A stretch of DNA of 64,000 bases. It comes from Octopus sinensis. Its lineage: Eukaryota. The position numbers and the translations under genes were made by a program. Every line of letters starts with the position of its first letter. Position 1 is the stretch's first letter. Under the pieces are notes generated by a model. It worked only from the letters and a program-made list of their open reading frames with translations. It did no database searches and had not been told where the DNA came from. Location: NCBI RefSeq assembly GCF_006345805.1, contig NW_021833065.1, positions 599,431-663,430 of the forward strand, written 5' to 3'. Below are positions 1 through 62,225 of this stretch, in pieces.

Positions 1-3000
1 ACTTTTTTAAAACTATTTCTAATACTTAAAGAAAACCTCTCTCATAGAGTGTTTGCTCAATTCAACTCACGCAAATATGGGGGTAGAGACATTAAAAAAT
101 CAAGTGCAAAGGTTATTTGAGAACGTACGTTTCAAGATTAGTCAAAATCGACATTTCTATCAACAGCTCAGAACTCCCTGGTTTGGATTTGAAAACACTG
201 AAAGTGGGAGCATACCCTTTCGGCTTCCTATCGCTTCTGAAGATCTGCTCGTAACTAACAGTGCCAACAAACTCAAAAATGCAAGCGAAGAATTTCTGCT
301 CTCCCCTTTCCACCAGCGTGGGTTAAAATCAGTAAACACTATGCTTTTTTCGGTAAAATCCGCGGCATTATATAGAGAGAGATGAATATAATTTCAACAA
401 TTGAGGGTAAAATTAATTAATTAATCAATTTCACCAAGTATTCAGTATACAAAGGGACCATTTAAGGCGAATTCAAATTATTACATTATATAAAAGGGCT
501 TAGTAAAATAAATTACTTTGCCGCATACTGAACTCATTAGAAATAGCAGCTAAAAAAACTTTTTTAAAACTATTTCTAATACTTAAAGAAAACCTCTCTC
601 ATATAGTGTTTGCTCAATTCAACTCACGCAAATATGGGGGTAGAGACATTAAAAAATCAAGTGCAAAGGTTATTTGAGAACGTACGTTTCAAGATTAGTC
701 AAAATCGACATTTCTATCATCAGCTCAGAACTCCCTGGTTTGGATTTGAAAACACTGAAAGTGGGAGCATACCCTTTCGGCTTCCTATCGCTTCTGAAGA
801 TCTGCTCGTAACTAACAGTGCCAAAAACTCAAAAATGCAAGCGAAAATTTCTGCTCTCCCCTTTCCACCAGCGTGGGTTAAAATCAGTAAACACTATGCT
901 TTTTTCGGTAAAATCCGCGCATTATATAGAGAGAGATGAATTATAATTTCAACAATTGAGGGTAAAATTAATTAATTAATCAATTTCACCAAGTATTCAG
1001 TATGCAAAGGGACCATTTAAGGCGAATTCAAATTATTACATTATATAAAAAGGCTTAGTAAAATAAATTACTTTGCCGCATACTGAACTCATTAGAAATA
1101 GCAGCTAAAAAAACTTTTTTAAAACTATTTCTAATACTTAAAGAAAACCTCTCTCATATAGTGTTTGCTCAATTCAACTCACGCAAATATGGGGGTAGAG
1201 ACATTAAAAAATCAAGTGCAAAGGTTATTTGAGAACGTACGTTTCAAGATTAGTCAAAATCGACATTTCTATCATCAGCTCAGAACTCCCTGGTTTGGAT
1301 TTGAAAACACTGAAAGTGGGAGCATACCCTTTCGGCTTCCTATCGCTTCTGAAGATCTGCTCGTAACTAACAGTGCCAACAAACTCAAAAATGCAAGCGA
1401 AGAATTTCTGCTCTCCCCTTTCCACCAGCGTGGGTTAAAATCAGTAAACACTATGCTTTTTTCGGTAAAATCCGCGGCATTTAATAGAGAGATATGAATT
1501 ATAATTTCAACAATTGAGGGTAAAATTAATTAATTAATCAATTTCACCAAGTATTCAGTATGCAAAGGGACCATTTAAGGCGAATTCAAATTATTACATT
1601 ATATAAAAGGGCTTAGTAAAATAAATTACTTTGCCGCATACTGAACTCATTAGAAATAGCAGCTAAAAAAACTTTTTTAAAACTATTTCTAATACTTAAA
1701 TAAAACCTCTCTCATATAGTGTTTGCTCAATTCAACTCACGCAAATATGGGGGTAGAGACATTAAAAAATCAAGTGCAAAGGTTATTTGAGAACGTACGT
1801 TTCAAGATTGTCAAATCGACATTTCTATCATCAGCTCAGAACTCCCTGGTTTGGATTTGAAAACACTGAAAGTGGGAGCATACCCTTTCGGCTTCCTATC
1901 GCTTCTGAAGATCTGCTCGTAACTAACAGTGCCAACAAACTAAAAATGCAAGCGAAGAATTTCTGCTCTCCCCTTTCCACCAGCGTGGGTTAAAATCAGT
2001 AAACACTATGCTTTTTTCGGTAAAATCCGCGGCATTATATAGAGAGAGATGAATTATAATTTCAACAATTGAGGGTAAAATTAATTAATTAATCAATTTC
2101 ACCAAGTATTCAGTATACAAAGGGACCATTTAAGGCGAATTCAAATTATTACATTATATAAAAGGGCTTAGTAAAATAAATTACTTTGCCGCATACTGAA
2201 CTCATTAGAAATAGCAGCTAAAAAAACTTTTTTAAAACTATTTCTAATACTTAAAGAAAACCTCTCTCGTATAGTGTTTGCTCAATTCAACTCACGCAAA
2301 TATGGGGGTAGAGACATTAAAAAATCAAGTGCAAAGGTTATTTGAGAACGTACGTTTCAAGATTAGTCAAAATCGACATTTCTATCATCAGCTCAGAACT
2401 CCCTGGTTTGGATTTGAAAACACTGAAAGTGGGAGCATACCCTTTCGGCTTCCTATCGCTTCTGAAGATCTGCTCGTAACTAACAGTGCCAACAAACTCA
2501 AAAATGCAAGCGAAGAATTTCTGCTCTCCCCTTTCCACCAGCGTGGGTTAAAATCAGTAAACACTATGCTTTTTTCGGTAAAATCCGCGGCATTATATAG
2601 AGAGAGATGAATTATAATTTCAACAATTGAGGGTAAAATTAATTAATTAATCAATTTCACCAAGTATTCAGTATGCAAAGGGACCATTTAAGGCGAATTC
2701 AAATTATTACATTATATAAAAGGGCTTAGTAAAATAAATTACTTTGCCGCTACTGAAATCATTAGAAATAGCAGCTAAAAAAACTTTTTTAAGACTATTT
2801 CTAATACTTAAAGAAAAACTCCTCTCTTATAGTGTTTGCTCAATTCAACTCACGCAAATATGGGGGTAGAGACATTAAAAAATCAGGTGCAAAGGTTATT
2901 TGAGAACGTACGTTTCAGAGAGTCAAAATCGACATTTCTATCATCAGCTCAGAACTCCCTGGTTTGGATTTGAAAACACTGAAAGTGGGAGCATACCCTT

Positions 3001-6000
3001 TCGGCTTCCTATCGCTTCTGAAGATCTGCTCGTAACTAACAGTGCCAACAAACTCAAAAATGCAAGCGAAGAATTTCTGCTCTCCCCTTTCCACCAGCGT
3101 GGGTTAAAATCAGTAAACACTATGCTTTTTTCGGTAAAATCCGCGGCATTATATAGAGAGATATGAATTATAATTTCAACAATTGAGGGTAAAATTAATT
3201 AATTAATCAATTTCACCAAGTATTCAGTATGCAAAGGGACCATTTAAGGCGAATTCAAATTATTACATTATATAAAAGGGCTTAGTAAAATAAATTACTT
3301 TGCCGCATACTGAACTCATTAGAAATAGCAGCTAAAAAAACTTTTCTAAAACTATTTCTAATACTTAAGAAAACCTCTCTCATATAGTGTTTGCTCAATT
3401 CAACTCACGCAAATATGGGGGTAGAGACATTAAAAAATCAAGTGCAAAGGTTATTTGAGAACGTACGTTTCAAGATTAGTCAAAATCGACATTTCTATCA
3501 TCAGCTCAGAACTCCCTGGTTTGGATTTGAAAACACTGAAAGTGGGAGCATACCCTTTCGGCTTCCTATCGCTTCTGAAGATCTGCTCGTAACTAACAGT
3601 GCCAACAAACTCAAAAATGCAAGCGAAGAATTTCTGCTCTCCCCTCTCCACCAGCGTGGGTTAAAATCAGTAAACACTATGCTTTTTTCGGTAAAATCCG
3701 TGGCATTATATAGAGAGAGATGAATTATAATTTCAACAATTGAGGGTAAAATTAATTAATTAATCAATTTCACCAGTTCAGTATGCAAAGGACCATTTAG
3801 GCGAATTCAAATTATTACATTATATAAAAGGGCTTAGTAAAATAAATTACTTTGCCGCATACTGAACTCATTAGAAATAGCAGCTAAAAAAACTTTTTTA
3901 AAACTATTCTAATACTTAAAGAAAACCTCTCTCATATAGTGTTTTCTCAATTCAACTCACGCAAATATGGGGGTAGAGACATTAAAAAATCAAGTGCAAA
4001 GGTTATTGAGAACGTACGTTTCAAGATTAGTCAAAATCGACATTTCTATCATCAGCTCAGAACTCCCTGGTTTGGATTTGAAAACACTGAAAGTGGGAGC
4101 ATACCCTTTCGGCTTCCTATCGCTTCTGAAGATCTGCTCGTAACTAACAGTGCCAACAAACTCAAAAATGCAAGCGAAGAATTTCTGCTCTCCCCTTTCC
4201 ACCAGCGTGGGTTAAAATCAGTAAACACTATGCTTTTTTCGGTAAAATCCGCGGCATTATATAGAGAGAGATGAATTATAATTTCAACAATTGAGGGTAA
4301 AATTAATTAATTAATCAATTTCACCAAGTATTCAGTATGCAAGGGACCATTTAAGGCGAATTCAAATTATTACATTATATAAAAGGGCTTAGTAAAATAA
4401 ATTACTTTGCCGCATACTGAACTCATTAGAAATAGCAGCTAAAAAAACTTTTTTAAAACTATTTCTAATACTTAAAGAAAACCTCTCTCGTATAGTGTTT
4501 TCTCAATTCAACTCACGCAAATATGGGGGTAGAGACATTAAAAAATCAAGTGCAAAGGTTATTTGAGAACGTACGTTTCAAGATTAGTCAAAATCGACAT
4601 TTCTATCATCAGCTCAGAACTCCCTGGTTTGGATTTGAAAACACTGAAAGTGGGAGCATACCCTTTCGGCTTCCTATCGCTTCTGAAGATCTGCTCGTAA
4701 CTAACAGTGCCAACAAACTCAAAAATGCAAGCGAAGAATTTCTGCTCTCCCCTTTCCACCAGCGTGGGTTAAAATCAGTAAACACTATGCTTTTTTCGGT
4801 AAAATCCGCGGCATTATATAGAGAGAGATGAATTATAATTTCAACAATTGAGGGTAAAATTAATTAATTAATCAATTTCACCAAGTATTCAGTATGCAAA
4901 GGGACCATTTAAGCGAATTCAATTATTACATTATATAAAAGGGCTTAGTAAAATAAATTACTTTGCCGCATACTGAACTCATTAGAAATAGCAGCTAAAA
5001 AAACTTTTTTAAAACTATTTCTAATACTTAAAGAAAACCTCTCTCATATAGTGTTTGCTCAATTCAACTCACGCAAATATGGGGGTAGAGACATTAAAAA
5101 ATCAAGTGCAAAGGTTATTTGAGAACGTACGTTTCAAGATTAGTCAAAATCGACATTTCTATCAACAGCTCAGAACTCCCTGGTTTGGATTTGAAAACAC
5201 TGAAAGTGGGAGCATACCCTTTCGGCTTCCTATCGCTTCTGAAGATCTGCTCGTAACTAACAGTGCCAACAAACTCAAAAATGCAAGCGAAGAATTCTGC
5301 TCTCCCCTTTCCACCAGCGTGGGTTAAAATCAGTAAACACTATGCTTTTTTCGGTAAAATCCGCGGCATTATATAGAGAGAGATGAATTATAATTTCAAC
5401 AATTGAGGGTAAAATTAATTAATTAATCAATTTCACCAAGTATTCAGTATGCAAAGGGACCATTTAAGGCGAATTCAAATTATTACATTATATAAAAGGG
5501 CTTAGTAAAATAAATTACTTTGCCGCATACTGAACTCATTAGAAATAGCAGCTAAAAAAACTTTTTTAAAACTATTTCTAATACTTAAAGAAAACCTCTC
5601 TCATATAGTGTTTGCTCAATTCAACTCACGCAAATATGGGGGTAGAGACATTAAAAAATCAAGTGCAAAGGTTATTTGAGAACGTACGTTTCAAGATTAG
5701 TCAAAATCGACATTTCTATCATCAGCTCAGAACTCCCTGGTTTGGATTTGAAAACACTGAAAGTGGGAGCATACCCTTTCGGCTTCCTATCGCTTCTGAA
5801 GATCTGCTCGTAACTAACAGTGCCAACAAACTCAAAAATGCAAGCGAAGAATTTCTGCTCTCCCCTTTCCACCAGCGTGGGTTAAAATCAGTAAACACTA
5901 TGCTTTTTTCGGTAAAATCCGCGGCATTATATAGAGAGAGATGAATTATAATTTCAACAATTGAGGGTAAAATTAATTAATTAATCAATTTCACCAAGTA

Positions 6001-7183
6001 TTCAGTATGCAAAGGGACCATTTAAGGCGAATTCAAATTATTACATTATATAAAAGGGCTTAGTAAAATAAATTACTTTGCCGCATACTGAACTCATTAG
6101 AAATAGCAGCTAAAAAAACTTTTTTAAAACTATTTCTAATACTTAAAGAAAACCTCTCTCATATAGTGTTTGCTCAATTCAACTCACGCAAATATGGGGG
6201 TAGAGACATTAAAAAATCAAGTGCAAAGGTTATTTGAGAACGTACGTTTCAAGATTAGTCAAAATCGACATTTCTATCATCAGCTCAGAACTCCCTGGTT
6301 TGGATTTGAAAACACTGAAAGTGGGAGCATACCCTTTCGGCTTCCTATCGCTTCTGAAGATCTGCTCGTAACTAACAGTGCCAACAAACTCAAAAATGCA
6401 AGCGAAGAATTTCTGCTCTCCCCTTTCCACCAGCGTGGGTTAAAATCAGTAAACACTATGCTTTTTTCGGTAAAATCCGCGGCATTATATAGAGAGAGAT
6501 GAATTATAATTTCAACAATTGAGGGTAAAATTAATTAATTAATCAATTTCACCAAGTATTCAGTATGCAAAGGGACCATTTAAGGCGAATTCAAATTATT
6601 ACATTATATAAAAGGGCTTAGTAAAATAAATTACTTTGCCGCATACTGAACTCATTAGAAATAGCAGCTAAAAAAACTTTTTTAAAACTATTTCTAATAC
6701 TTAAAGAAAACCTCTCTCATATAGTGTTTTCTCAATTCAACTCACGCAAATATGGGGGTAGAGACATTAAAAAATCAAGTGCAAAGGTTATTTGAGAACG
6801 TACGTTTCAAGATTAGTCAAAATCGACATTTCTATCATCAGCTCAGAACTCCCTGGTTTGGATTTGAAAACACTGAAAGTGGGAGCATACCCTTTCGGCT
6901 TCCTATCGCTTCTGAAGATCTGCTCGTAACTAACAGTGCCAACAAACTCAAAAATGCAAGCGAAGAATTTCTGCTCTCCCCTTTCCACCAGCGTGGGTTA
7001 AAATCAGTAAACACTATGCTTTTTTCGGTAAAATCCGCGGCATATATAGAGAGAGATGAATTATAATTTCAACAATTGAGGGTAAAATTAATTAATTAAT
7101 CAATTTCACCAAGTATTCAGTATGCAAAGGGACCATTTAAGGCGAATTCAAATTATTACATTATATAAAAGGGCTTAGTAAAA
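1..7183 (-). repeat. Tandem array of ~558-bp units (about 13 copies, truncated by window start), each carrying a hammerhead ribozyme motif on the minus strand; satellite / non-LTR retrozyme-like concatemer
   Basis: The same unit recurs with a ~552-558 bp period (equivalent positions 53, 610, 1165, ~1723, 2278, ~2836, 3391, ~3943, ~4499, 5055, 5612, 6170, 6728). Copies differ by only a few substitutions and 1-bp indels. Strand is given as the ribozyme-sense strand. Confidence 0.97.
118..6845 (-). ncRNA. 13 minus-strand copies of the same hammerhead motif, one per unit (118-170, 675-727, 1230-1282, ~1788-1838, 2343-2395, ~2901-2951, 3456-3508, 4007-4059, 4564-4616, 5120-5172, 5677-5729, 6235-6287, 6793-6845)
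   Basis: Plus strand reads tgagaacgtacgtttcaagattagtcaaaatcgacatttctatcatcagctca in most units. Copies 1 and 10 read CUGUUGA (A6U), and copies 4 and 6 have small stem II indels. Confidence 0.78.
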
Positions 7184-7191
7184 AAAAAAGT

Positions 7192-7925
7192 TTTTTAAAA
7201 AAGTTTTTTTAGCTGCTATTTCTAATGAGTTCAGTATGCGCCAAAGTAATTTATTTTACTAAGCCCTTTTATATAATGTAATAATTTGAATTCGCCTTAA
7301 ATGGTCCCTTTGCATACTGAATACTTGGTGAAATTGATTAATTAATTAATTTTACCCTCAATTGTTGAAATTATAATTCATCTCTCTCTATATAATGCCG
7401 CGGTATTTCCCGAAAAAAGCATAGTGTTTACTGATTTTAACCCACGCTGGTGGAAAGGGGAGAGCAGAAATTCTTCGCTTGCATTTTTGAGTTTGTTGGC
7501 ACTGTTAGTTACGAGCAGATCTTCAGAAGCGATAGGAAGCCGAAAGGGTATGCTCCCACTTTCAGTGTTTTCAAATCCAAACCAGGGAGTTCTGAGCTGA
7601 TGATAGAAATGTCGATTTTGACTAATCTTGAAACGTACGTTCTCAAATAACCTTTGCACTTGATTTTTTAATGTCTCTACCCCCATATTTGCGTGAGTTG
7701 AATTGAGCAAACACTATATGAGAGAGGTTTTCTTTAAGTATTAGAAATAGTTTAAAAAAAGTTTTTTTAGCTGCTATTTCTAATGAGTTCAGTATGCGGC
7801 AAAGTAATTTATTTTACTAAGCCCTTTTATATAATGTAATAATTTGAATTCGCCTTAAATGGTCCCTTTGCATACTGAATACTTGGTGAAATTGATTAAT
7901 TAATTAATTTTACCCTCAATTGTGG

Positions 7926-7932
<7 letters not shown>
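7192..7932 (+). repeat. Inverted ~1.3-unit copy of the 558-bp repeat (foldback end of the array), ending in (TA)n
   Basis: Reverse complement of the array unit. The junction at 7181-7210 has a duplicated aaaaaagtttttt, and the copy ends at ...ccctcaattgtggaaatt(at)n. Confidence 0.96.
7593..7645 (+). ncRNA. Type I hammerhead ribozyme motif in the repeat unit (inverted copy)
   Basis: tgag(7593-96) CTGATGA(7597-7603) stem II tagaaatgtcgattttgactaatctt GAAA(7630-33) cgtacg T T(7641) ctca(7642-45). Stem I is 4 bp (tgag/ctca), stem III ACGTACGT is self-complementary, the cleavage triplet is GUU, and the predicted cut is 7641/7642. Confidence 0.8.
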
Positions 7933-7980
<48 letters not shown>

Positions 7981-7988
<8 letters not shown>

Positions 7989-10025: not shown

Positions 10026-10910
10026 GGATCTTTTCTATTCTGAAGCCAGTTTTTTCAAATTTTTCCTACTGAACCAAACAATTTGAAACTTCGTATACTG
10101 GTAGAATGTGTCAAAAGTAAACTTAATTGTAAACCAGAATGAAAATGGAATTGTAACTTCTAAGTTTAACGTTGTTTAATAATTAGAATTTTAACCAATG
10201 ATATTCCGTCATTCGGCTTTATTTTATTTACTCGGTCTCGACCACCAATTTGGTGACGTATTAACATCTTAAATGTAAACAAGCCGCATGTCTCCGTGAA
10301 ATCTCCTTCTAATTATTAACGTACTCATGTTTCCAGGATCCTATAGTCAGCCACCTTCTAATAACAATATTTAAAACTAGTTAATAAGCCACATGTATTA
10401 AATTGAAAATGTTTCCATTCTGTTAGTACTTGCTTTCGTTTGCTATTAAGAAGTGGCATCTCAGTGACGAGGCTTCTAACAAGATTTCGTTTCTAAGCTA
10501 ATGCGTTTCATTTCACTTATTGTATTTATTTGTGCAAAAGGCAAGAATTTAATATTAAAAAAGCAAAGAGCTGGCAGACACGTTAGCACGCCGGGCGAAA
10601 TGCGTAGCCGTATTTCGTCTGCCGTTACGTTCTGTGTTTGTTTACAGTTTTCCGAACGTTAGTACGTCACAAAAGCGCTTTCTACGTCACACTAATAGAA
10701 TGCAGTCAAGTTTTACACATGAAAACAAACAATCTGATTGGTTAAAATTCGCAGTTTTAATCTACGATTAAAGTCATAAAATAGATTTTTCTCAAATAAA
10801 CTAGTTCCAACCTGTGTCTTGTTTTGCTAGACTCTATCAGCATACGAAGTTTCAGAATATTTAGTTAAGTAGAAAGATCTGTGGTCCTGGCTTCAGAATT
10901 GAAAAGATCC
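10026..10910. mobile_element. Merlin-like MITE (GG-starting TIRs, 8-bp TSD)
   Basis: TIRs ggatcttttctattctgaagccag / ctggcttcagaattgaaaagatcc, with a perfect 8-bp TSD ctctttcc at 10018-10025 and 10911-10918. Contains a SINE 5' fragment at ~10566-10635. Confidence 0.88.
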
Positions 10911-36541: not shown

Positions 36542-36678
36542 CTTTATTTAAAGCAGCAGAAAATTCAACAAAATCTGTTACTCTGAGTTTCTCGTTGCCG
36601 TTCATCAGACAGTTTTTGCTGGCAACGAGAAACTCAGAGTAACAGATTTTGTTGAATTTTCTGCTGCTTTAAATAAAG
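36542..36678. repeat. Perfect palindrome (58-bp arms, 21-nt loop) between (TA)n and (CA)n
   Basis: 36542-36599 is the exact reverse complement of 36621-36678. Confidence 0.95.
36571..36617 (-). ncRNA. Minimal type I hammerhead ribozyme motif
   Basis: aaaaactgt CTGATGA a-cg-gcaa-cg-a GAAA ctcaga GTA acagattt: stem I ctgt/acag, 2-bp stem II with GNRA loop, stem III actc/gagt, GUA triplet. Confidence 0.75.
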
Positions 36679-49287: not shown

Positions 49288-49524
49288 TATATATTAGAAA
49301 AATTGAGGTAATCAGATCAGATGGTTCATATTTGTAGATATTTATTTATATATTACATTTTTTACATATATATCATATCATATCATTCGGATTTCGGATT
49401 AGCGCTTGCTCCCATTCTAGTGGGCTTTTCAAATCAAATCAGTTGTGGGAAGTTTGAACATTTTATAGTTTTGTAGTAGTGGCTGAGGAGGAAGTGAGAC
49501 AGAGAAAAAATGTGTGTATGTGTA

Positions 49525-49555
<31 letters not shown>

Positions 49556-50111
49556 GTGTGTGCGTGTGTGTGTGCGCGTTTATATCTGAGAGTGAAGAAG
49601 TGTTATTTCCGTTGGTCTGCTGGACCGCCTGTGGTTTTATAAGAACTTTGGCTGTCCATTTCGATGTCACTGAGTGTGTGTTGTGCGTAGGTTGGCGTGG
49701 AAAATGTCATTTGGGGTCACACTTTCTATGATCATTCTGTGGAGGTGTGTGTGTGTGTGTGTGTCCAGGCGGTCCAGCAGACCAACGGAAATAACACTTC
49801 TTCACTCTCAGATATAAACGCGCGCGCACACACACACACACACACGCACACACACATACACACACACACACACATACACATACACACATTTTTTCTCTGT
49901 CTCACTTCCTCCTCAGCCACTACTACAAAACTATAAAATGTTCAAACTTCCCACAACTGATTTGATTTGAAAAGCCCACTAGAATGGGAGCAAGCGCTAA
50001 TCCGAAATCCGAATGATATGATATGATATATATGTAAAAAATGTAATATATAAATAAATATCTACAAATATGAACCATCTGATCTGATTACCTCAATTTT
50101 TCTAATATATA
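49288..50111. repeat. Near-perfect long inverted repeat (~345-bp arms, 134-bp spacer)
   Basis: 49288-49631 is the reverse complement of 49766-50111; by eye they differ only in the internal (TG)/(CA) tract. Confidence 0.96.
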
Positions 50112-50409: not shown

Positions 50410-50548
50410 ACTCCTTACAGCTGTTTCAGCCTATGGTTAAAAGTAGTTATTTTTATTTTCATTGCCTATAGTTGTCAATTATTTTGAGGTTGTAGGCATT
50501 TAAAAATAGGGTACTCATATACATAACCATTGGCCTCGTCAGAGATTA
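50410..50548 (-). ncRNA. Type I hammerhead ribozyme motif with long stem II insert
   Basis: tct CTGACGA ggccaatggtt...aaccataggct GAAA cagct GTA agg: stem II 10/11 paired, palindromic stem III ACAGCTGT, 3-bp stem I, GUA triplet. Confidence 0.75.
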
Positions 50549-57503: not shown

Positions 57504-57559
57504 AATTTGCCAAAATATTTCCGTCGCTTTGAGACCACGATCTGATCACTGACAAAATT
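57504..57559 (-). ncRNA. Degenerate G3-C8 variant hammerhead motif
   Basis: tttgtca GTGATCA gatcgtggtctcaaagcgac GGAA atat TT tggcaaa: stem I tttgtca/tggcaaa, tcg/cga stem II, palindromic aatatt stem III; the GAAA is mutated. Confidence 0.5.
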
Positions 57560-57897: not shown

Positions 57898-57961
57898 TAT
57901 TATATATATATATATATATCAGAAATTAAAGAAGGAAAATGCACATAGTTTTAATAGTCCT

Positions 57962-57994
57962 TGTTGACCGGTTTCGCTTTCGCTAATCATGACA
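57962..57994 (-). ncRNA. Minimal A3-U8 variant hammerhead in the PLE 5' inverted pLTR
   Basis: tgtc ATGATTA gc-gaaa-gc GAAA ccg GTC aaca: core intact, palindromic stem III ACCGGT, one stem I mismatch. Confidence 0.7.
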
Positions 57995-58449
57995 TTAAAA
58001 TTTATTTAAATACATATTTTCTTAAGAAAAAAATTTTGTCCATGTTGAGTGTGGAGTTTAAGAATAAATGATTCAACAAGTAGGAAAATCTAAGGGGAGG
58101 TAATTGGCTATCGTTATTATTGTGGACAGAGGAGATAATTGTTCATCTTTCGGTGGGGTGGGGTATATATATAAATACAAAAATTCAAAAACTAGAGTAG
58201 TGGGAAGATATATGTACAGCGATGGGTATGTAATCGTGTCCAAGAGACTTCCTCTTCTCCTCAACGAAGAAACTCAACCTACGGATTCTTACCATATTTA
58301 CCTAGACAGCACAACCAACTCCTCAACATTCCAAACACAATTAAGCACTCCTACAATTTATTCCAACGAAGAAACCCGAACTACGTACTTCCAACCAATT
58401 TACCCAGACAGCAACACCAACCTCTCAGCAATCTCAATACAATAAATAA

Positions 58450-60770
58450 TAACAATAATAATACCGTCTACCAATCAAATTACTGTAAGCATTTTTTAGA
58501 CCGAGTGGAGAGAAACAGAGATATACGTTGGAACAAAACTTACAGGAAAAACCCAAAGTAATAAATTTATCAAAGAAAACTCTCTGCAACAAAAATCAGT
58601 ATACTAGCTAAAGGATTAACGTTTACTCCACCCCACGAAGATCTAACCATAATGGAATTAAAGACAATATTTCGGAATTCTGCAGAAAACTATGACTCAC
58701 AGAAGCACTAATTGACAACAACGAAGATGAGTCACTGGTTAAAAACTGAAGTAATTACTTTCCACATAAAGGTAGGAATAAAACACTAGATGACTTCTGC
58801 GACTGTATCCAAAATTTCCCCTACACATCCAATAAACGAAAATTTATTTCAAACCTCATCAATCTAGGGTGGAAAAATCTAATTGAACTACAAAGCGACA
58901 AAGACCTGACAATTAAAGAGGCAGACAAAAGAAGTGCTGTAGTTCTGATGGACACAATACTATTAAAACCTAGTATTATCTATGCTAGAAAACGATGGCT
59001 TCTATGAAGAAGTTGTAAAATATAGCTAACAAAAAACAGTGAAAACTCTTGCATCCTTAATACTTTTACATGGAAAAGGCCTGACAGAAAAAGAAACCGA
59101 CTACAACACGAACGTCAAATGTAAACCTAGTCTTTCTTACGGCCTACCTAAAATACACAAGTGCAAGATAGTTAATGAAGCCTTCAAACAATCACCAGGT
59201 AAATACATAAATATCCAAGCGCCAGAAGACATAAAGTTAAGGCCCTTTATAGCTGGCCCAGCCTGTGAAACCCATTGCCTAAGCAATTTTCTAGACATCC
59301 TACTGAAACATTAAAAGTTCCATTAGAGACGATTTAGACATGCTAGATCACCTAGCAAAAACAAAGAAGAGGCATTATTGGTTTCCTTCGATGTTATCAA
59401 TCTTTACACCAACATCCCACATGACTATGGAATAAAAGCAATCAAATTCTGGTTGGAAAAGTACCCCCAAAGTACTTCCGGAACGCATAAATCGGGTCTT
59501 TATTATTGAATCTTTAAAATTTATACTTCAGAACAATTAATTCCTATTTGATGACACTTACTATCGTCAAAAATGCGGAATTGCGATGAGAACGAAGGCA
59601 GCCCCTGTTCTTGCGAACCTAATAATGGGTTATTTTGAATTCACCATATATGAAGTATCACTGCAAAAACATGGTTATCTATTTCACCATTACATAAGAG
59701 AAAACTGGAAAAGATACCTGGATGACTGTTTTATTATTTGGAAGGAGACCATTGATAAACTTTTGGAATTTAAATCAACACTAAATCACATAAACTGTAG
59801 CATTCAATTCACAATGGAATATAGCAAACAAGAGCTCCCATTTTCGGATATTATCATAAAAAAGTCAACAACCAAATTATAACTGACATCTATCATAAAC
59901 CAACCGACTCGAAACAATATCTCCTTTTTAACTCATGCCACCCGAAACACATCAAAATAAATATCCCCTTTAATTTGGCAAACAGGATTTGCAAAATAGT
60001 GTCTGATAGAACTACTCGGGACCTTCGTCTTCAAGACCTCAGAACAACACTAACTGAAAGACAATATCCACCCTCACTTATAGACGATGGAATTAAGCGT
60101 GCCAAGAAATTAGACATAAAAACACCAAGGACAACAAAACATAACACCATACCTCATCTCAAAATACTACTGTATATATATCAATTCACAACTCAATGAA
60201 GCATACAACACTATTGTGCAAAATCTCCCTTTACAAACTAGAGGCCCCAAAATGAACAACATCCTAAAAGCACATAAATTCATCAAATTCAAAAAGCAAC
60301 ACAAATCGCTAAAGTGACTTCTAACAAATGCGAGGCTTTACACAACAACCACGAAACCAACGGTTAAAAAATGTGGACGCCTAAACTGTGGAACATATCC
60401 CAACCTACTTGAAGGCTCAGAGTTCCTTTTAAAACAAGGAGAAAGATTCACAATTAAAACCAACTTCACTTGTGCCTCTGAGAACCTAATTTATATAATA
60501 ACCTGATCGGGTTGTGGGCATCACTATATAGGACAGACAAGTATGATATTGAGGCGGAGAACCACTCTACATAAAGAGCAGATCCGGTTCTCGCAATACA
60601 GACAGATTCCTTTAAGTGAACATATAGAGAGATGTACAGGTAACATTAAACCAAATTTCACAGTTTTCTCCTTCTACCGAGCAAAGATACAATTTATTTA
60701 TAAGAACGTTTAAATAAAGAAAATTTATTCACCGTAAAAGACAGAACACGTCTAAATATGCACGCATAAC
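58450..60770 (+). pseudogene. Penelope-like reverse transcriptase + GIY-YIG endonuclease, disrupted
   Basis: Ordered motifs IKEADKRSAVVLMD, YGLPKIHK, LRPFIAGP, LVSFDVINLYTNIPH, GIAMRTKAAPVLANLIMG, WKRYLDDCF, ELPFSDI, TDIYHKPTDSKQYLLFNSCHP, L.ERQYP, NFTCASENLIYIIT*SGCGHHYIGQT; many stops and frameshifts. Confidence 0.95.
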
Positions 60771-60976
60771 CAGCTTTGATCTTTAATACATATTTTAATT
60801 CACGATTACATACCCTTCACTGTACATATGTCCCCACTACTCTAGTTTTTGAATTTTTGTGCCTGTAGTATATATATTATATATAGTAATATATATAGAT
60901 ATAAGATATATATATCTATGTATATATATATATATATATCTGTATGATGTATCATATGTAGCATGTATGTACTGGA

Positions 60977-61007
<31 letters not shown>

Positions 61008-61034
61008 ATGTTGTATGTATGGTAAACGTATGCT

Positions 61035-61175
61035 GCATGCATGTTACCCCAACCACATAGTTCCGGGTTTAGTTTCACTGCGTGGAACTTTGGGCAAGTG
61101 CTATATACCATATCCTCGGGACGACTAAACCCTTGTGAGTGGATTTGGTAGACGCAAGTTGAAAGACCGTCGTGC
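61035..61175 (+). mobile_element. CORE SINE 5' half; inverted near-identical partner at 61998-62140
   Basis: Both copies read ccccaaccacatagttccgggtttagtttcactgcgtggaactttgggcaagt...ccatatcctcgggacgactaaacccttgtgag. Confidence 0.85.
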
Positions 61176-61182
61176 GCGTGCG

Positions 61183-61239
<57 letters not shown>

Positions 61240-61534
61240 AGGTACGTCGCTTAGTGGTTAGGGTATTAGATTCAAGATAGTAAGATTGTGGTTTCGATTT
61301 CTGGACCGGGTGATGCGTTGTGTTCTTGCCCAAAACATTTCATTTCATCTTACTCCAGTCCATATATATATATATCTCCCCACCGAAAGAAGAACAATTA
61401 TCTCCCCTGTCCACAATAATAACGATAACCAATTACCTCCCCTTAGATTGTTGAATCATTCATTCATAAAAGCCATACACAACATGGACAAAAAATCTTT
61501 TTCTTAAGAAAATACATATTTAAATAAATGTTAA

Positions 61535-61567
61535 TGTCATGATTAGCGAAAGCAAAACCGGTCGACA
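61535..61567 (+). ncRNA. Minimal A3-U8 variant hammerhead in the PLE 3' pLTR
   Basis: tgtc ATGATTA gc-gaaa-gc AAAA ccg GTC gaca: perfect 4-bp stem I, but G12 has changed to A. Confidence 0.65.
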
Positions 61568-62225
61568 AACACAATATAATATATATTAAAACTATGTAAA
61601 GTGTGTGCATTTTCCTTCTTTAATTTCTTATATATATATTACAACGCACAATGTGGGGATAATCGAAATTCTTCCCCTTCTGTTACTATTATATATATAT
61701 ATATAATTATATACAGTAAAAGTTTCTCCCCGAGTCGTATAGACACATAAGGCCTATTTCCCGGTTTCCGTGGCGTATATATTCCCCACCTGGACGGGAC
61801 GCCGGTCCGTCGCAGGATTACTCACCTTTTTACCAGCTGAGTGGACTGGAGTAACATGAAATGAAGTGTTTTGCGCAAGAACACAACGCATCACCTGGTC
61901 CAGAAATCGAAGCCACAATCTTACTATCTTAAATCTAATACCCTAACCACTAAGTGATGTACCTACACACACACACACACGCGCGCGCACACACACACAC
62001 GACGGTCTTCTTTCAACTTCCGTCTACCAAATCCACTCACAAGGGTTTAGTCGTCCCGAGGATATGGTATATAGTACTTGCCCAAAGTTCCACGCAGTGA
62101 AACTAAACCCGGAACTATGTGGTTGGGGTGTACATGCATGCATGCGTACATACATACATACATACATACATACATACATACATACATGCATACATACATA
62201 CATACATGCATACATACATACATAC

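What the first reader, a model, noticed from the sequence alone, without database searches (positions are those of the whole stretch)
7633..7640. Self-complementary stem III (ACGUACGU) predicts dimer-dependent cleavage between neighbouring units
Seen: in a monomer, stem III is only 2 bp plus a 4-nt loop, but two copies can form an 8-bp duplex. Known: minimal type I HHRs of newt satellite 2 and Penelope-like elements cleave efficiently as double-hammerhead dimers through palindromic stem III. Inference: tandem organisation is functionally required, so only multimeric transcripts would be processed. The same design recurs in the other HHRs here (ACAGCTGT, ACCGGT, AGCGCT, AATATT).
Basis: partly seen in the sequence, partly recalled or inferred. 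Interest (0 to 1): 0.75.

Follow-up and report, generated by a model that had tools for sequence, protein, structure and literature searches.

The report
Pair-cutting hammerhead in a young retrozyme
The palindrome is one arm of a hammerhead (self-cutting RNA) motif in a 558-base protein-free repeat with over 2,600 copies in this animal genome; two copies are predicted to pair through it before cutting, a design already known in such jumping elements, and the natural variants of the palindrome fit that.

Summary
ACGTACGT at 7633-7640 is real. It is stem III of a type I hammerhead (core 7597-7603, predicted cut after GUU at 7641) in a 558-bp non-coding unit, with 2,620 matches keeping the exact palindrome. 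Copies sit in (TA)n as tail-out inverted tandem arrays; 31 of 34 have one long and one short fixed end, a Penelope-like signature. Dimer pairing is supported: predicted inter-copy duplex P about 1.0 against 0.10 for the monomer pair. Duplex-breaking loop variants were fixed in 0 of 16 multi-copy arrays, wobble-preserving ones in 2 of 7 (p 0.08). A 65%-identical sister family keeps a different near-palindrome. 'Only multimers are processed' is overstated: a similar axolotl ribozyme cuts 22% as a monomer, and the flagged copy is the lone + strand hammerhead of its arm, predicted to be buried in dsRNA. Cleavage and expression were not shown. It is a new member of a known kind (non-LTR retrozyme), and the scan noted the same design on other DNA.

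The parts
7633..7640 (+). Palindromic stem III / loop 3 (A15.1 C15.2 GUAC G16.2 U16.1)
7593..7645 (+). Type I hammerhead: stem I 7593-7596/7642-7645, core 7597-7603, stem II 7604-7629 (U.U base, 3 bp, 3x3 internal loop, 3-4 bp, loop 2), GAA 7630-7632, predicted cut after U7641; the only + strand hammerhead of this locus
1..7187 (-). Left arm of the array: head-to-tail 558-bp units, 13 hammerheads in the window (cores at 166, 723, 1278, 1834, 2391, 2947, 3504, 4055, 4612, 5168, 5725, 6283, 6841; those at 166 and 5168 have A6 changed). The arm is 8,938 bp (16 hammerheads) and ends left of the window at unit position 204 in (TA)n
7188..7192 (.). Inversion junction joining the 5'-truncated ends of the two arms (unit positions 167 and 110, 5-bp gap)
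7193..7933 (+). Right arm: unit positions 110-558, then 1-292 (the long end)
7930..7982 (.). (TA)n target microsatellite
50413..50545 (-). Other family: CTGACGA hammerhead-like motif with long stem II (-24.2 kcal/mol) and ACAGCTGT stem III
61535..61567 (+). Other family: A3-U8 hammerhead with ACCGGT (AAA in place of GAA)
57962..57994 (-). Inverted partner of the 61539 hammerhead, GAA intact, stem I mismatch
59541..60199 (+). Broken Penelope-type reverse transcriptase remnant between those two hammerheads (56% identity over 95 aa to the RT in L097)
57506..57556 (-). Other family: G3-C8 hammerhead-like motif with AATATT (GGA in place of GAA)
49964..50002 (+). Other family: U3-A8 hammerhead-like motif with AGCGCT (GCA in place of GAA); inverted twin at 49397-49435 in a 346-bp inverted repeat
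36575..36612 (-). Other family: hammerhead with near-palindrome ACTC-A-GAGT

Best explanation
The palindrome is stem III of a type I hammerhead motif in a 558-bp non-coding tandem repeat that is likely a non-LTR retrozyme spread by Penelope-type enzymes, and two hammerheads on one transcript likely pair through it so that tandem RNA would be cut much faster than a single copy. Inferred cycle: read-through transcription of an arm with two or more sense copies; the rod-like fold of the unit brings neighbouring hammerheads together; the double hammerhead releases a 558-nt monomer; a host ligase would circularise it; the circle, with one hammerhead, would be largely spared; a Penelope-like RT/GIY-YIG protein would nick (TA)n and start copying at two fixed internal sites (unit positions about 292 and 190-210), one per target strand, giving tail-out inverted arrays. 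The dependence is probably quantitative, not absolute. The flagged copy itself is unlikely to be cut in cis.
For: Shown in sequence: complete core; 2,620 exact-palindrome matches against 36 family copies with a loop-3 change (16+3+3+14). Duplex-breaking variants were fixed in 0 of 16 multi-hammerhead loci; variants that keep all 8 pairs through G.U wobbles were fixed in 2 of 7, one across both arms. In 40 loci, 0 of 26 core, stem I and stem III positions had an array-fixed alternative, against 89 of 505 elsewhere and 9 of 26 in stem II. The sister family (317 pattern matches, 65% identity, about 560 bp, same two ends) has ACAG[A/G]CTGT, varying at the centre. 70 of the first 100 of 3,501 other-family matches are palindromic, with three different palindromes (hand count). 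31 of 34 inverted insertions have one long and one short end, and arrays share one haplotype on both arms. Predicted: cis double hammerhead -170.6 against -158.5 for two monomers; inter-copy pairing 0.72-1.00 in 5 of 5 intact family pairs, 0.00 with a natural broken copy, monomer pair 0.10; circle -146.7 against -111.6 +/- 6.4 in 40 shuffles. Literature: PMC4209133, PMC7229834, PMC11167929, PMC8557442, 10.64898/2026.07.22.740005.
Against: No cleavage, circle or transcript was observed; no holder run is on record as RNA. 0/16 against 2/7 gives only p = 0.083 (one-sided Fisher, by hand). Conservation of the palindrome alone in 40 loci is not significant (P 0.21; 0.46 for the loop). No fully compensatory change was found within the family. 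In the GUU subfamilies the predicted duplex extends over A14-U17 (P 0.49-0.90), and the unconstrained fold (-175.1) is not the active one. In a three-unit stretch the model paired copies 1 and 3, not neighbours, and sister-family pairing was only 0.34. Invertebrate retrozyme hammerheads mostly cut as monomers (PMC7761336 passage). An anole Penelope hammerhead needed protein, and its cleavage was dispensable for insertion in vitro (PMC11167929). No autonomous partner was identified.
Confidence: 0.68

Rival explanations
1. The hammerhead cuts adequately as a monomer (helped by stem I/stem II contacts or a protein); the palindrome only adds speed or allows pairing in trans, so tandem layout is not required.
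For: Monomeric coral and mussel clones cut well and axolotl HHR_Amex2 cut 22% (PMC7229834). The active-like circle fold costs only 3.7 kcal/mol. 44 of 67 arms carry a single match.
Against: Loop 3 should then be free to vary, yet duplex-breaking variants were fixed in 0 of 16 arrays while loop 2 varies between arrays. Monomer pair probability is 0.10.
Confidence: 0.17
2. Cleavage is marginal; uncut linear multimers are the template, and the palindrome serves mainly to pair RNA copies or bind the Penelope protein.
For: Unprocessed RNA was the dominant substrate for an anole Penelope element, with no reads ending at its cut site (PMC11167929). Penelope hammerheads cut poorly even as dimers (PMC4209133). 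GUU site, U.U base and predicted A14-U17 pairing. Variants shared by subsets of units within arrays could come from a multimeric template.
Against: Core, stem I and NUH are conserved across subfamilies and in the 65%-identical sister family, where N17 is U, A or C. Insertion ends do not lie at the cut site, and arms reach 16 units.
Confidence: 0.12
3. An ordinary satellite amplified at DNA level, with a chance or relic hammerhead.
For: Some variants recur at 2-4 unit spacing within arrays, so some DNA-level expansion or assembly error exists.
Against: Dispersed short arrays on many chromosomes, (TA)n targets, two fixed ends in 31 of 34 and a conserved fold (126 of 162 pairs kept in the sister family against a null of 106 +/- 4.7).
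Confidence: 0.03

Closest known systems
Metazoan non-LTR retrozymes, especially axolotl Rtz_353 / HHR_Amex2 (Cervera and de la Pena 2020, PMC7229834)
   Same: Non-coding tandem repeat, GC under 50%, one type I hammerhead per unit, 2-bp helix III with tetraloop, U.U at the base of helix II, predicted self-paired circle
   Different: Unit is 558 bp (150-450 in that paper; 51-972 in the 2026 preprint), GUU site, stem II with a 3x3 internal loop, tail-out inverted arrays in (TA)n; RNA not demonstrated here
Minimal / short-palindromic-helix-III hammerheads in Penelope-like element pseudo-LTRs (PMC4209133; Lunse et al., known only through citing passages in PMC6765202 and PMC7761336)
   Same: Short helix I (4 bp), long helix II, palindromic 15.2-16.2 plus loop 3, dimer model
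   Different: No G10.1-C11.1 pair; no ORF between hammerheads; no sequence match to the two Penelope elements compared
Penelope-like insertion geometry (PMC8557442; PMC11167929)
   Same: Partial tandems, inverted 5'-truncated arm, (TA)n or AT-rich target, 'tail' at one end corresponding to two internal RT start sites
   Different: Tail is about 85-100 bp rather than 30-40; arms are many units long
Retrozymes as non-autonomous PLE derivatives (Li et al. preprint 10.64898/2026.07.22.740005)
   Same: Co-occurrence with RT + GIY-YIG elements in this genome
   Different: That study is vertebrate-centred; the parent pseudo-LTR of this family was not found

Membership tests
Type I hammerhead with short palindromic helix III | Core CUGANGA...GAAA...UH with stems I and II | tested here: met
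   H17 = U here, A in one subfamily, C in the sister family
Type I hammerhead with short palindromic helix III | Palindromic 15.2-16.2 and loop 3 | tested here: met
Type I hammerhead with short palindromic helix III | G10.1-C11.1 pair | tested here: not met
   U.U here; G.U, U-A, A.A in subfamilies; U.U also described for HHR_Amex2 (PMC7229834)
Type I hammerhead with short palindromic helix III | Match to an Rfam hammerhead model at gathering score | tested here: not met
   0 matches in the window
Type I hammerhead with short palindromic helix III | Self-cleavage, faster as dimer | not testable with these tools
   folding predictions and variant fates only
Metazoan non-LTR retrozyme | [quoted passage not shown] | tested here: met
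Metazoan non-LTR retrozyme | Non-coding, GC below 50% | tested here: met
   longest stop-to-stop frames in the array 110-128 aa, antisense to the hammerhead (not scanned against Pfam); GC 0.33-0.35
Metazoan non-LTR retrozyme | Highly self-paired unit fold | tested here: met
   predicted z -5.5; fold kept in the sister family
Metazoan non-LTR retrozyme | Expressed as unit-length linear and circular RNA | not testable with these tools
   only assembled contigs of runs of uncertain type
Metazoan non-LTR retrozyme | No LTR, PBS or PPT; long target duplications when present | not tested
   ends run into (TA)n, so duplications cannot be read; PBS/PPT not searched
Penelope-mobilised element | Tandem plus inverted 5'-truncated arms, microsatellite target, tail at one end | tested here: met
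   31 of 34; 19 of 19 two-strand loci tail-out
Penelope-mobilised element | Homology to the pseudo-LTR of an autonomous element | tested here: inconclusive
   no match better than E 0.16 to the 2 elements compared; no genome-wide search
Autonomous Penelope-like element | RT + GIY-YIG ORF within the unit | tested here: not met

The most novel reading that the evidence does not exclude
These arrays are direct footprints of rolling-circle reverse transcription of one 558-nt RNA circle, primed twice at two fixed internal sites (one per target strand). The dimer-dependent hammerhead is the switch that cuts multimers but spares circles, and its natural variants record that selection: only wobble-preserving palindromes founded new arrays.
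Probability: 0.4. Interest if true: 0.55.

Novelty: new member of a known kind. Interest (0 to 1): 0.3.

Why it matters
The dimer mechanism is known in vitro, but its role in the life cycle of retrozymes and Penelope-like elements is unsettled. This young, abundant family supplies ready-made natural alleles (broken against wobble-preserving palindromes, GUU/GUA/GUC sites) and precise insertion ends. These make the dimer requirement, the circle template and two-site priming testable. By itself the finding is ordinary.

Tried and rejected
Rfam: no match. An alternative register using the first GAAA with a 2-nt stem II was rejected, because subfamily and sister-family changes keep the 26-nt stem II. 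Expression: no RNA holder listed; contigs of guessed-RNA runs cover the unit but cannot show ends, strand or circles, so they are not used as evidence. The single ACAGCTGT copy first looked like a compensatory palindrome; one search showed that family's usual form is 9 nt, so it is a one-base deletion. The Penelope element in L097 lies between two arrays but has its own ends and hammerhead and no match to the unit, so it was not taken as the parent. Pfam gave no relevant hit for the three window frames tested. Compensatory pair counts between the families did not exceed the null (14-15 against about 10 +/- 2.7); only total retained pairing did. The AGCGCT at 10679 had no core in the scan. Lunse et al. 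was not held; Forster 1988 was not looked up. No supplements were read; they may hold this family or more monomer/dimer rates.

Full report
Observation. ACGTACGT lies at 7633-7640. A descriptor scan places it as stem III of a type I hammerhead: stem I TGAG/CTCA (4 bp), CTGATGA at 7597-7603, a 26-nt stem II region, GAA at 7630-7632 and a GUU site with the predicted cut after 7641. Stem II folds as U.U, 3 bp, a 3x3 internal loop and an inner hairpin. Rfam found 0 matches in the window, and the 71-nt motif alone folds no better than shuffles (z 0.45). Monomer stem III is predicted at +2.4 kcal/mol, the self-duplex at -9.8, and a 10-pair extension over A14/U17 at -11.6.

Surroundings. The motif is in a 558-bp unit. 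The window holds 13 minus-strand hammerheads (2 with A6 changed), an inversion at 7188-7192 and a short plus arm ending in (TA)n. The left arm is 8,938 bp with 16 hammerheads and ends left of the window, also in (TA)n. The flagged copy is the only plus-strand hammerhead. In a plus-strand transcript of 6441-7940 it is predicted to pair with 6798-6805 inside a perfect hairpin, so 'neighbouring units' applies to the minus arm and not to this copy. Frames in the array are 110-128 aa and antisense to the hammerhead.

The family. The genome is 2.72 Gb; that it is a cephalopod is my guess from recall, and no call names it. The family pattern has 2,629 matches, control 0; 2,620 keep the exact palindrome under slightly shorter flanks. 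The first 100 matches form 48 loci and 67 arms; 44 arms have one match, 21 loci have an arm with two or more, and 19 of 19 two-strand loci are tail-out (mutated copies are missed, so solos are overcounted). Among inverted insertions in fetched loci, 31 of 34 have one end at unit position 283-292 and the other at 188-210, with arbitrary 5' truncation at the junction (L092, L093 and L066 skipped, one edge locus dropped; the loci were picked from search lists, not at random). Each of 20 arrays has its own fixed variants, shared by both arms where both exist; divergence is 0.83% within and 1.85% between arrays over 76 full units. This matches Penelope-type geometry: tandem and inverted arms, a tail at one end, (TA)n bias (PMC8557442, passages), and two internal RT start sites that define the tail (PMC11167929, part 2 of 4). 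An element with RVT_1 and GIY-YIG domains exists in the genome, but neither it nor the remnant in the window matches the unit.

Unit structure. As a circle the unit folds to -146.7 against -111.6 +/- 6.4 in 40 shuffles; the antisense strand gives z -3.7. A sister family (317 pattern matches, at least one from another family) is 65% identical and about 560 bp, with the same two ends. 126 of 162 pairs of the family-only fold still pair in it, against a null of 106 +/- 4.7 (maximum 123 of 2,000); compensatory pairs alone (14-15) do not exceed the null. That null ignores clustering of conserved sites.

Test of the dimer idea. (i) Folding: on a real two-hammerhead stretch the cis double hammerhead is -170.6, two monomers -158.5, and the unconstrained fold -175.1. 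Inter-copy stem III pairing was 0.72-1.00 in 5 of 5 intact family pairs (two of them identical window stretches), 0.00 with a naturally broken copy, and 0.34 in the sister family; a lone copy forms its own pair at 0.10; in a three-unit stretch copies 1 and 3 paired. These are equilibrium models without tertiary contacts. (ii) Natural variants: genome-wide patterns gave 16, 3, 3 and 14 family copies changed at loop positions 1-4, after dropping 4, 4, 2 and 2 rows of other families; none is compensatory. I examined the loci of all of them (those mostly over +/-1.5 kb only). Duplex-breaking variants (self-duplex -2.1 to -3.1) were fixed in 0 of 16 multi-hammerhead loci, with 5 more loci single-copy and uninformative. 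Wobble-preserving variants (-6.2, -8.8) were fixed in 2 of 7 (2/2 copies in L145; 3/3 on both arms in L147), with 4 single-copy. One-sided Fisher p = 0.083 (by hand): the predicted direction, not proof. (iii) In 40 loci, 0 of 26 core, stem I and stem III positions had an array-fixed alternative against 89 of 505 elsewhere (P 0.006); for the palindrome alone P is 0.21 (loci found by the pattern are biased towards intact flanks). (iv) The sister family's stem III is ACAG[A/G]CTGT, differing between subfamilies at the centre. (v) Other families: 3,501 matches (control 102); 70 of the first 100 are palindromic (63 ACAGCTGT, 4 ACTGCAGT, 3 ACAATTGT; hand count), dominated by one family.

Against strict dependence. 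In PMC7229834 (parts 2-4 of 6) axolotl HHR_Amex2, with a 2-bp helix III and U.U at the base of helix II, cut 22% in an hour from a monomeric clone and much better as a dimer; coral and mussel monomeric clones cut at about 0.8 and 0.1 per min. PMC4209133 (parts 1-2 of 4) found no activity for a single minimal motif and low activity for dimers. PMC11167929 found a Penelope hammerhead that needed protein and was dispensable for insertion in vitro. No RNA evidence could be obtained here.

Mechanism. Shown: motif, copy number, array geometry, haplotypes, variant fates. Predicted: folds and dimer preference. Inferred: cleavage, circularisation, circle-templated two-site copying by a Penelope enzyme. 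Arms of up to 16 near-identical units starting away from the cut site fit a circle, but uncut multimers are not excluded, and variants recurring at 2-4 unit spacing are unexplained.

Known context. The dimer model and its regulatory reading are stated in PMC4209133 and in a review (PMC6765202, passages; PMC7761336, passages). The Penelope origin of retrozymes is argued in a preprint (10.64898/2026.07.22.740005; abstract, first part of Results, Discussion). Searches for this family (listings only) showed no description, which does not prove absence. Lunse et al. and Forster et al. were seen only as citations. The scan has no note near this place or for this sequence, but several unreviewed notes on the same design elsewhere; my end-geometry result preceded that look-up.

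Verdict. Observation confirmed; interpretation partly supported; new member of a known kind; interest 0.3.

Noticed in passing
window 7270-7389 and 7560-7700, laid contigs: Contigs from guessed-RNA runs of organism A carry runs of A>G or T>C changes (9 of the 10 listed substitutions under one contig are T>C; A>G at 7633 and 7637). This resembles A-to-I hyper-editing of both strands, as expected of dsRNA from inverted arrays; no matched DNA, so it is not shown.
   Followed up: no
window 57910-61639: Decayed Penelope-type element with inverted ends, each carrying an A3-U8 hammerhead with ACCGGT, around an RT remnant.
   Followed up: partly
L097 4815-9145 (G000:C1:29143800-29148150): Near-complete broken RT + GIY-YIG element with inverted ends carrying U3-A8 hammerheads with ACCGGT, in the same TA-rich region as two 558-bp arrays; one end also has U.U at the stem II base.
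   Followed up: partly
window 50413-50545 (-): Hammerhead-like motif with a stem II of about 108 nt.
   Followed up: partly
window 1-7187; L042-L046: Variants shared by subsets of units at 2-4 unit spacing (e.g. unit position 299 in units 3, 6, 9): multimeric template, DNA-level expansion or assembly error.
   Followed up: no
L092, L093, L101-L112: Sister retrozyme-like family of about 560 bp with a 9-nt imperfect palindrome and GUC site; weaker hits (72-82%) nearby hint at a third family.
   Followed up: partly
G000 genome-wide: Large older family with ACAGCTGT/GUA hammerheads, mostly single or in inverted pairs rather than tandem.
   Followed up: no
window 49288-50111: 346-bp inverted repeat at 97% identity carrying the AGCGCT motif with GCA in place of GAA in both copies.
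   Followed up: partly
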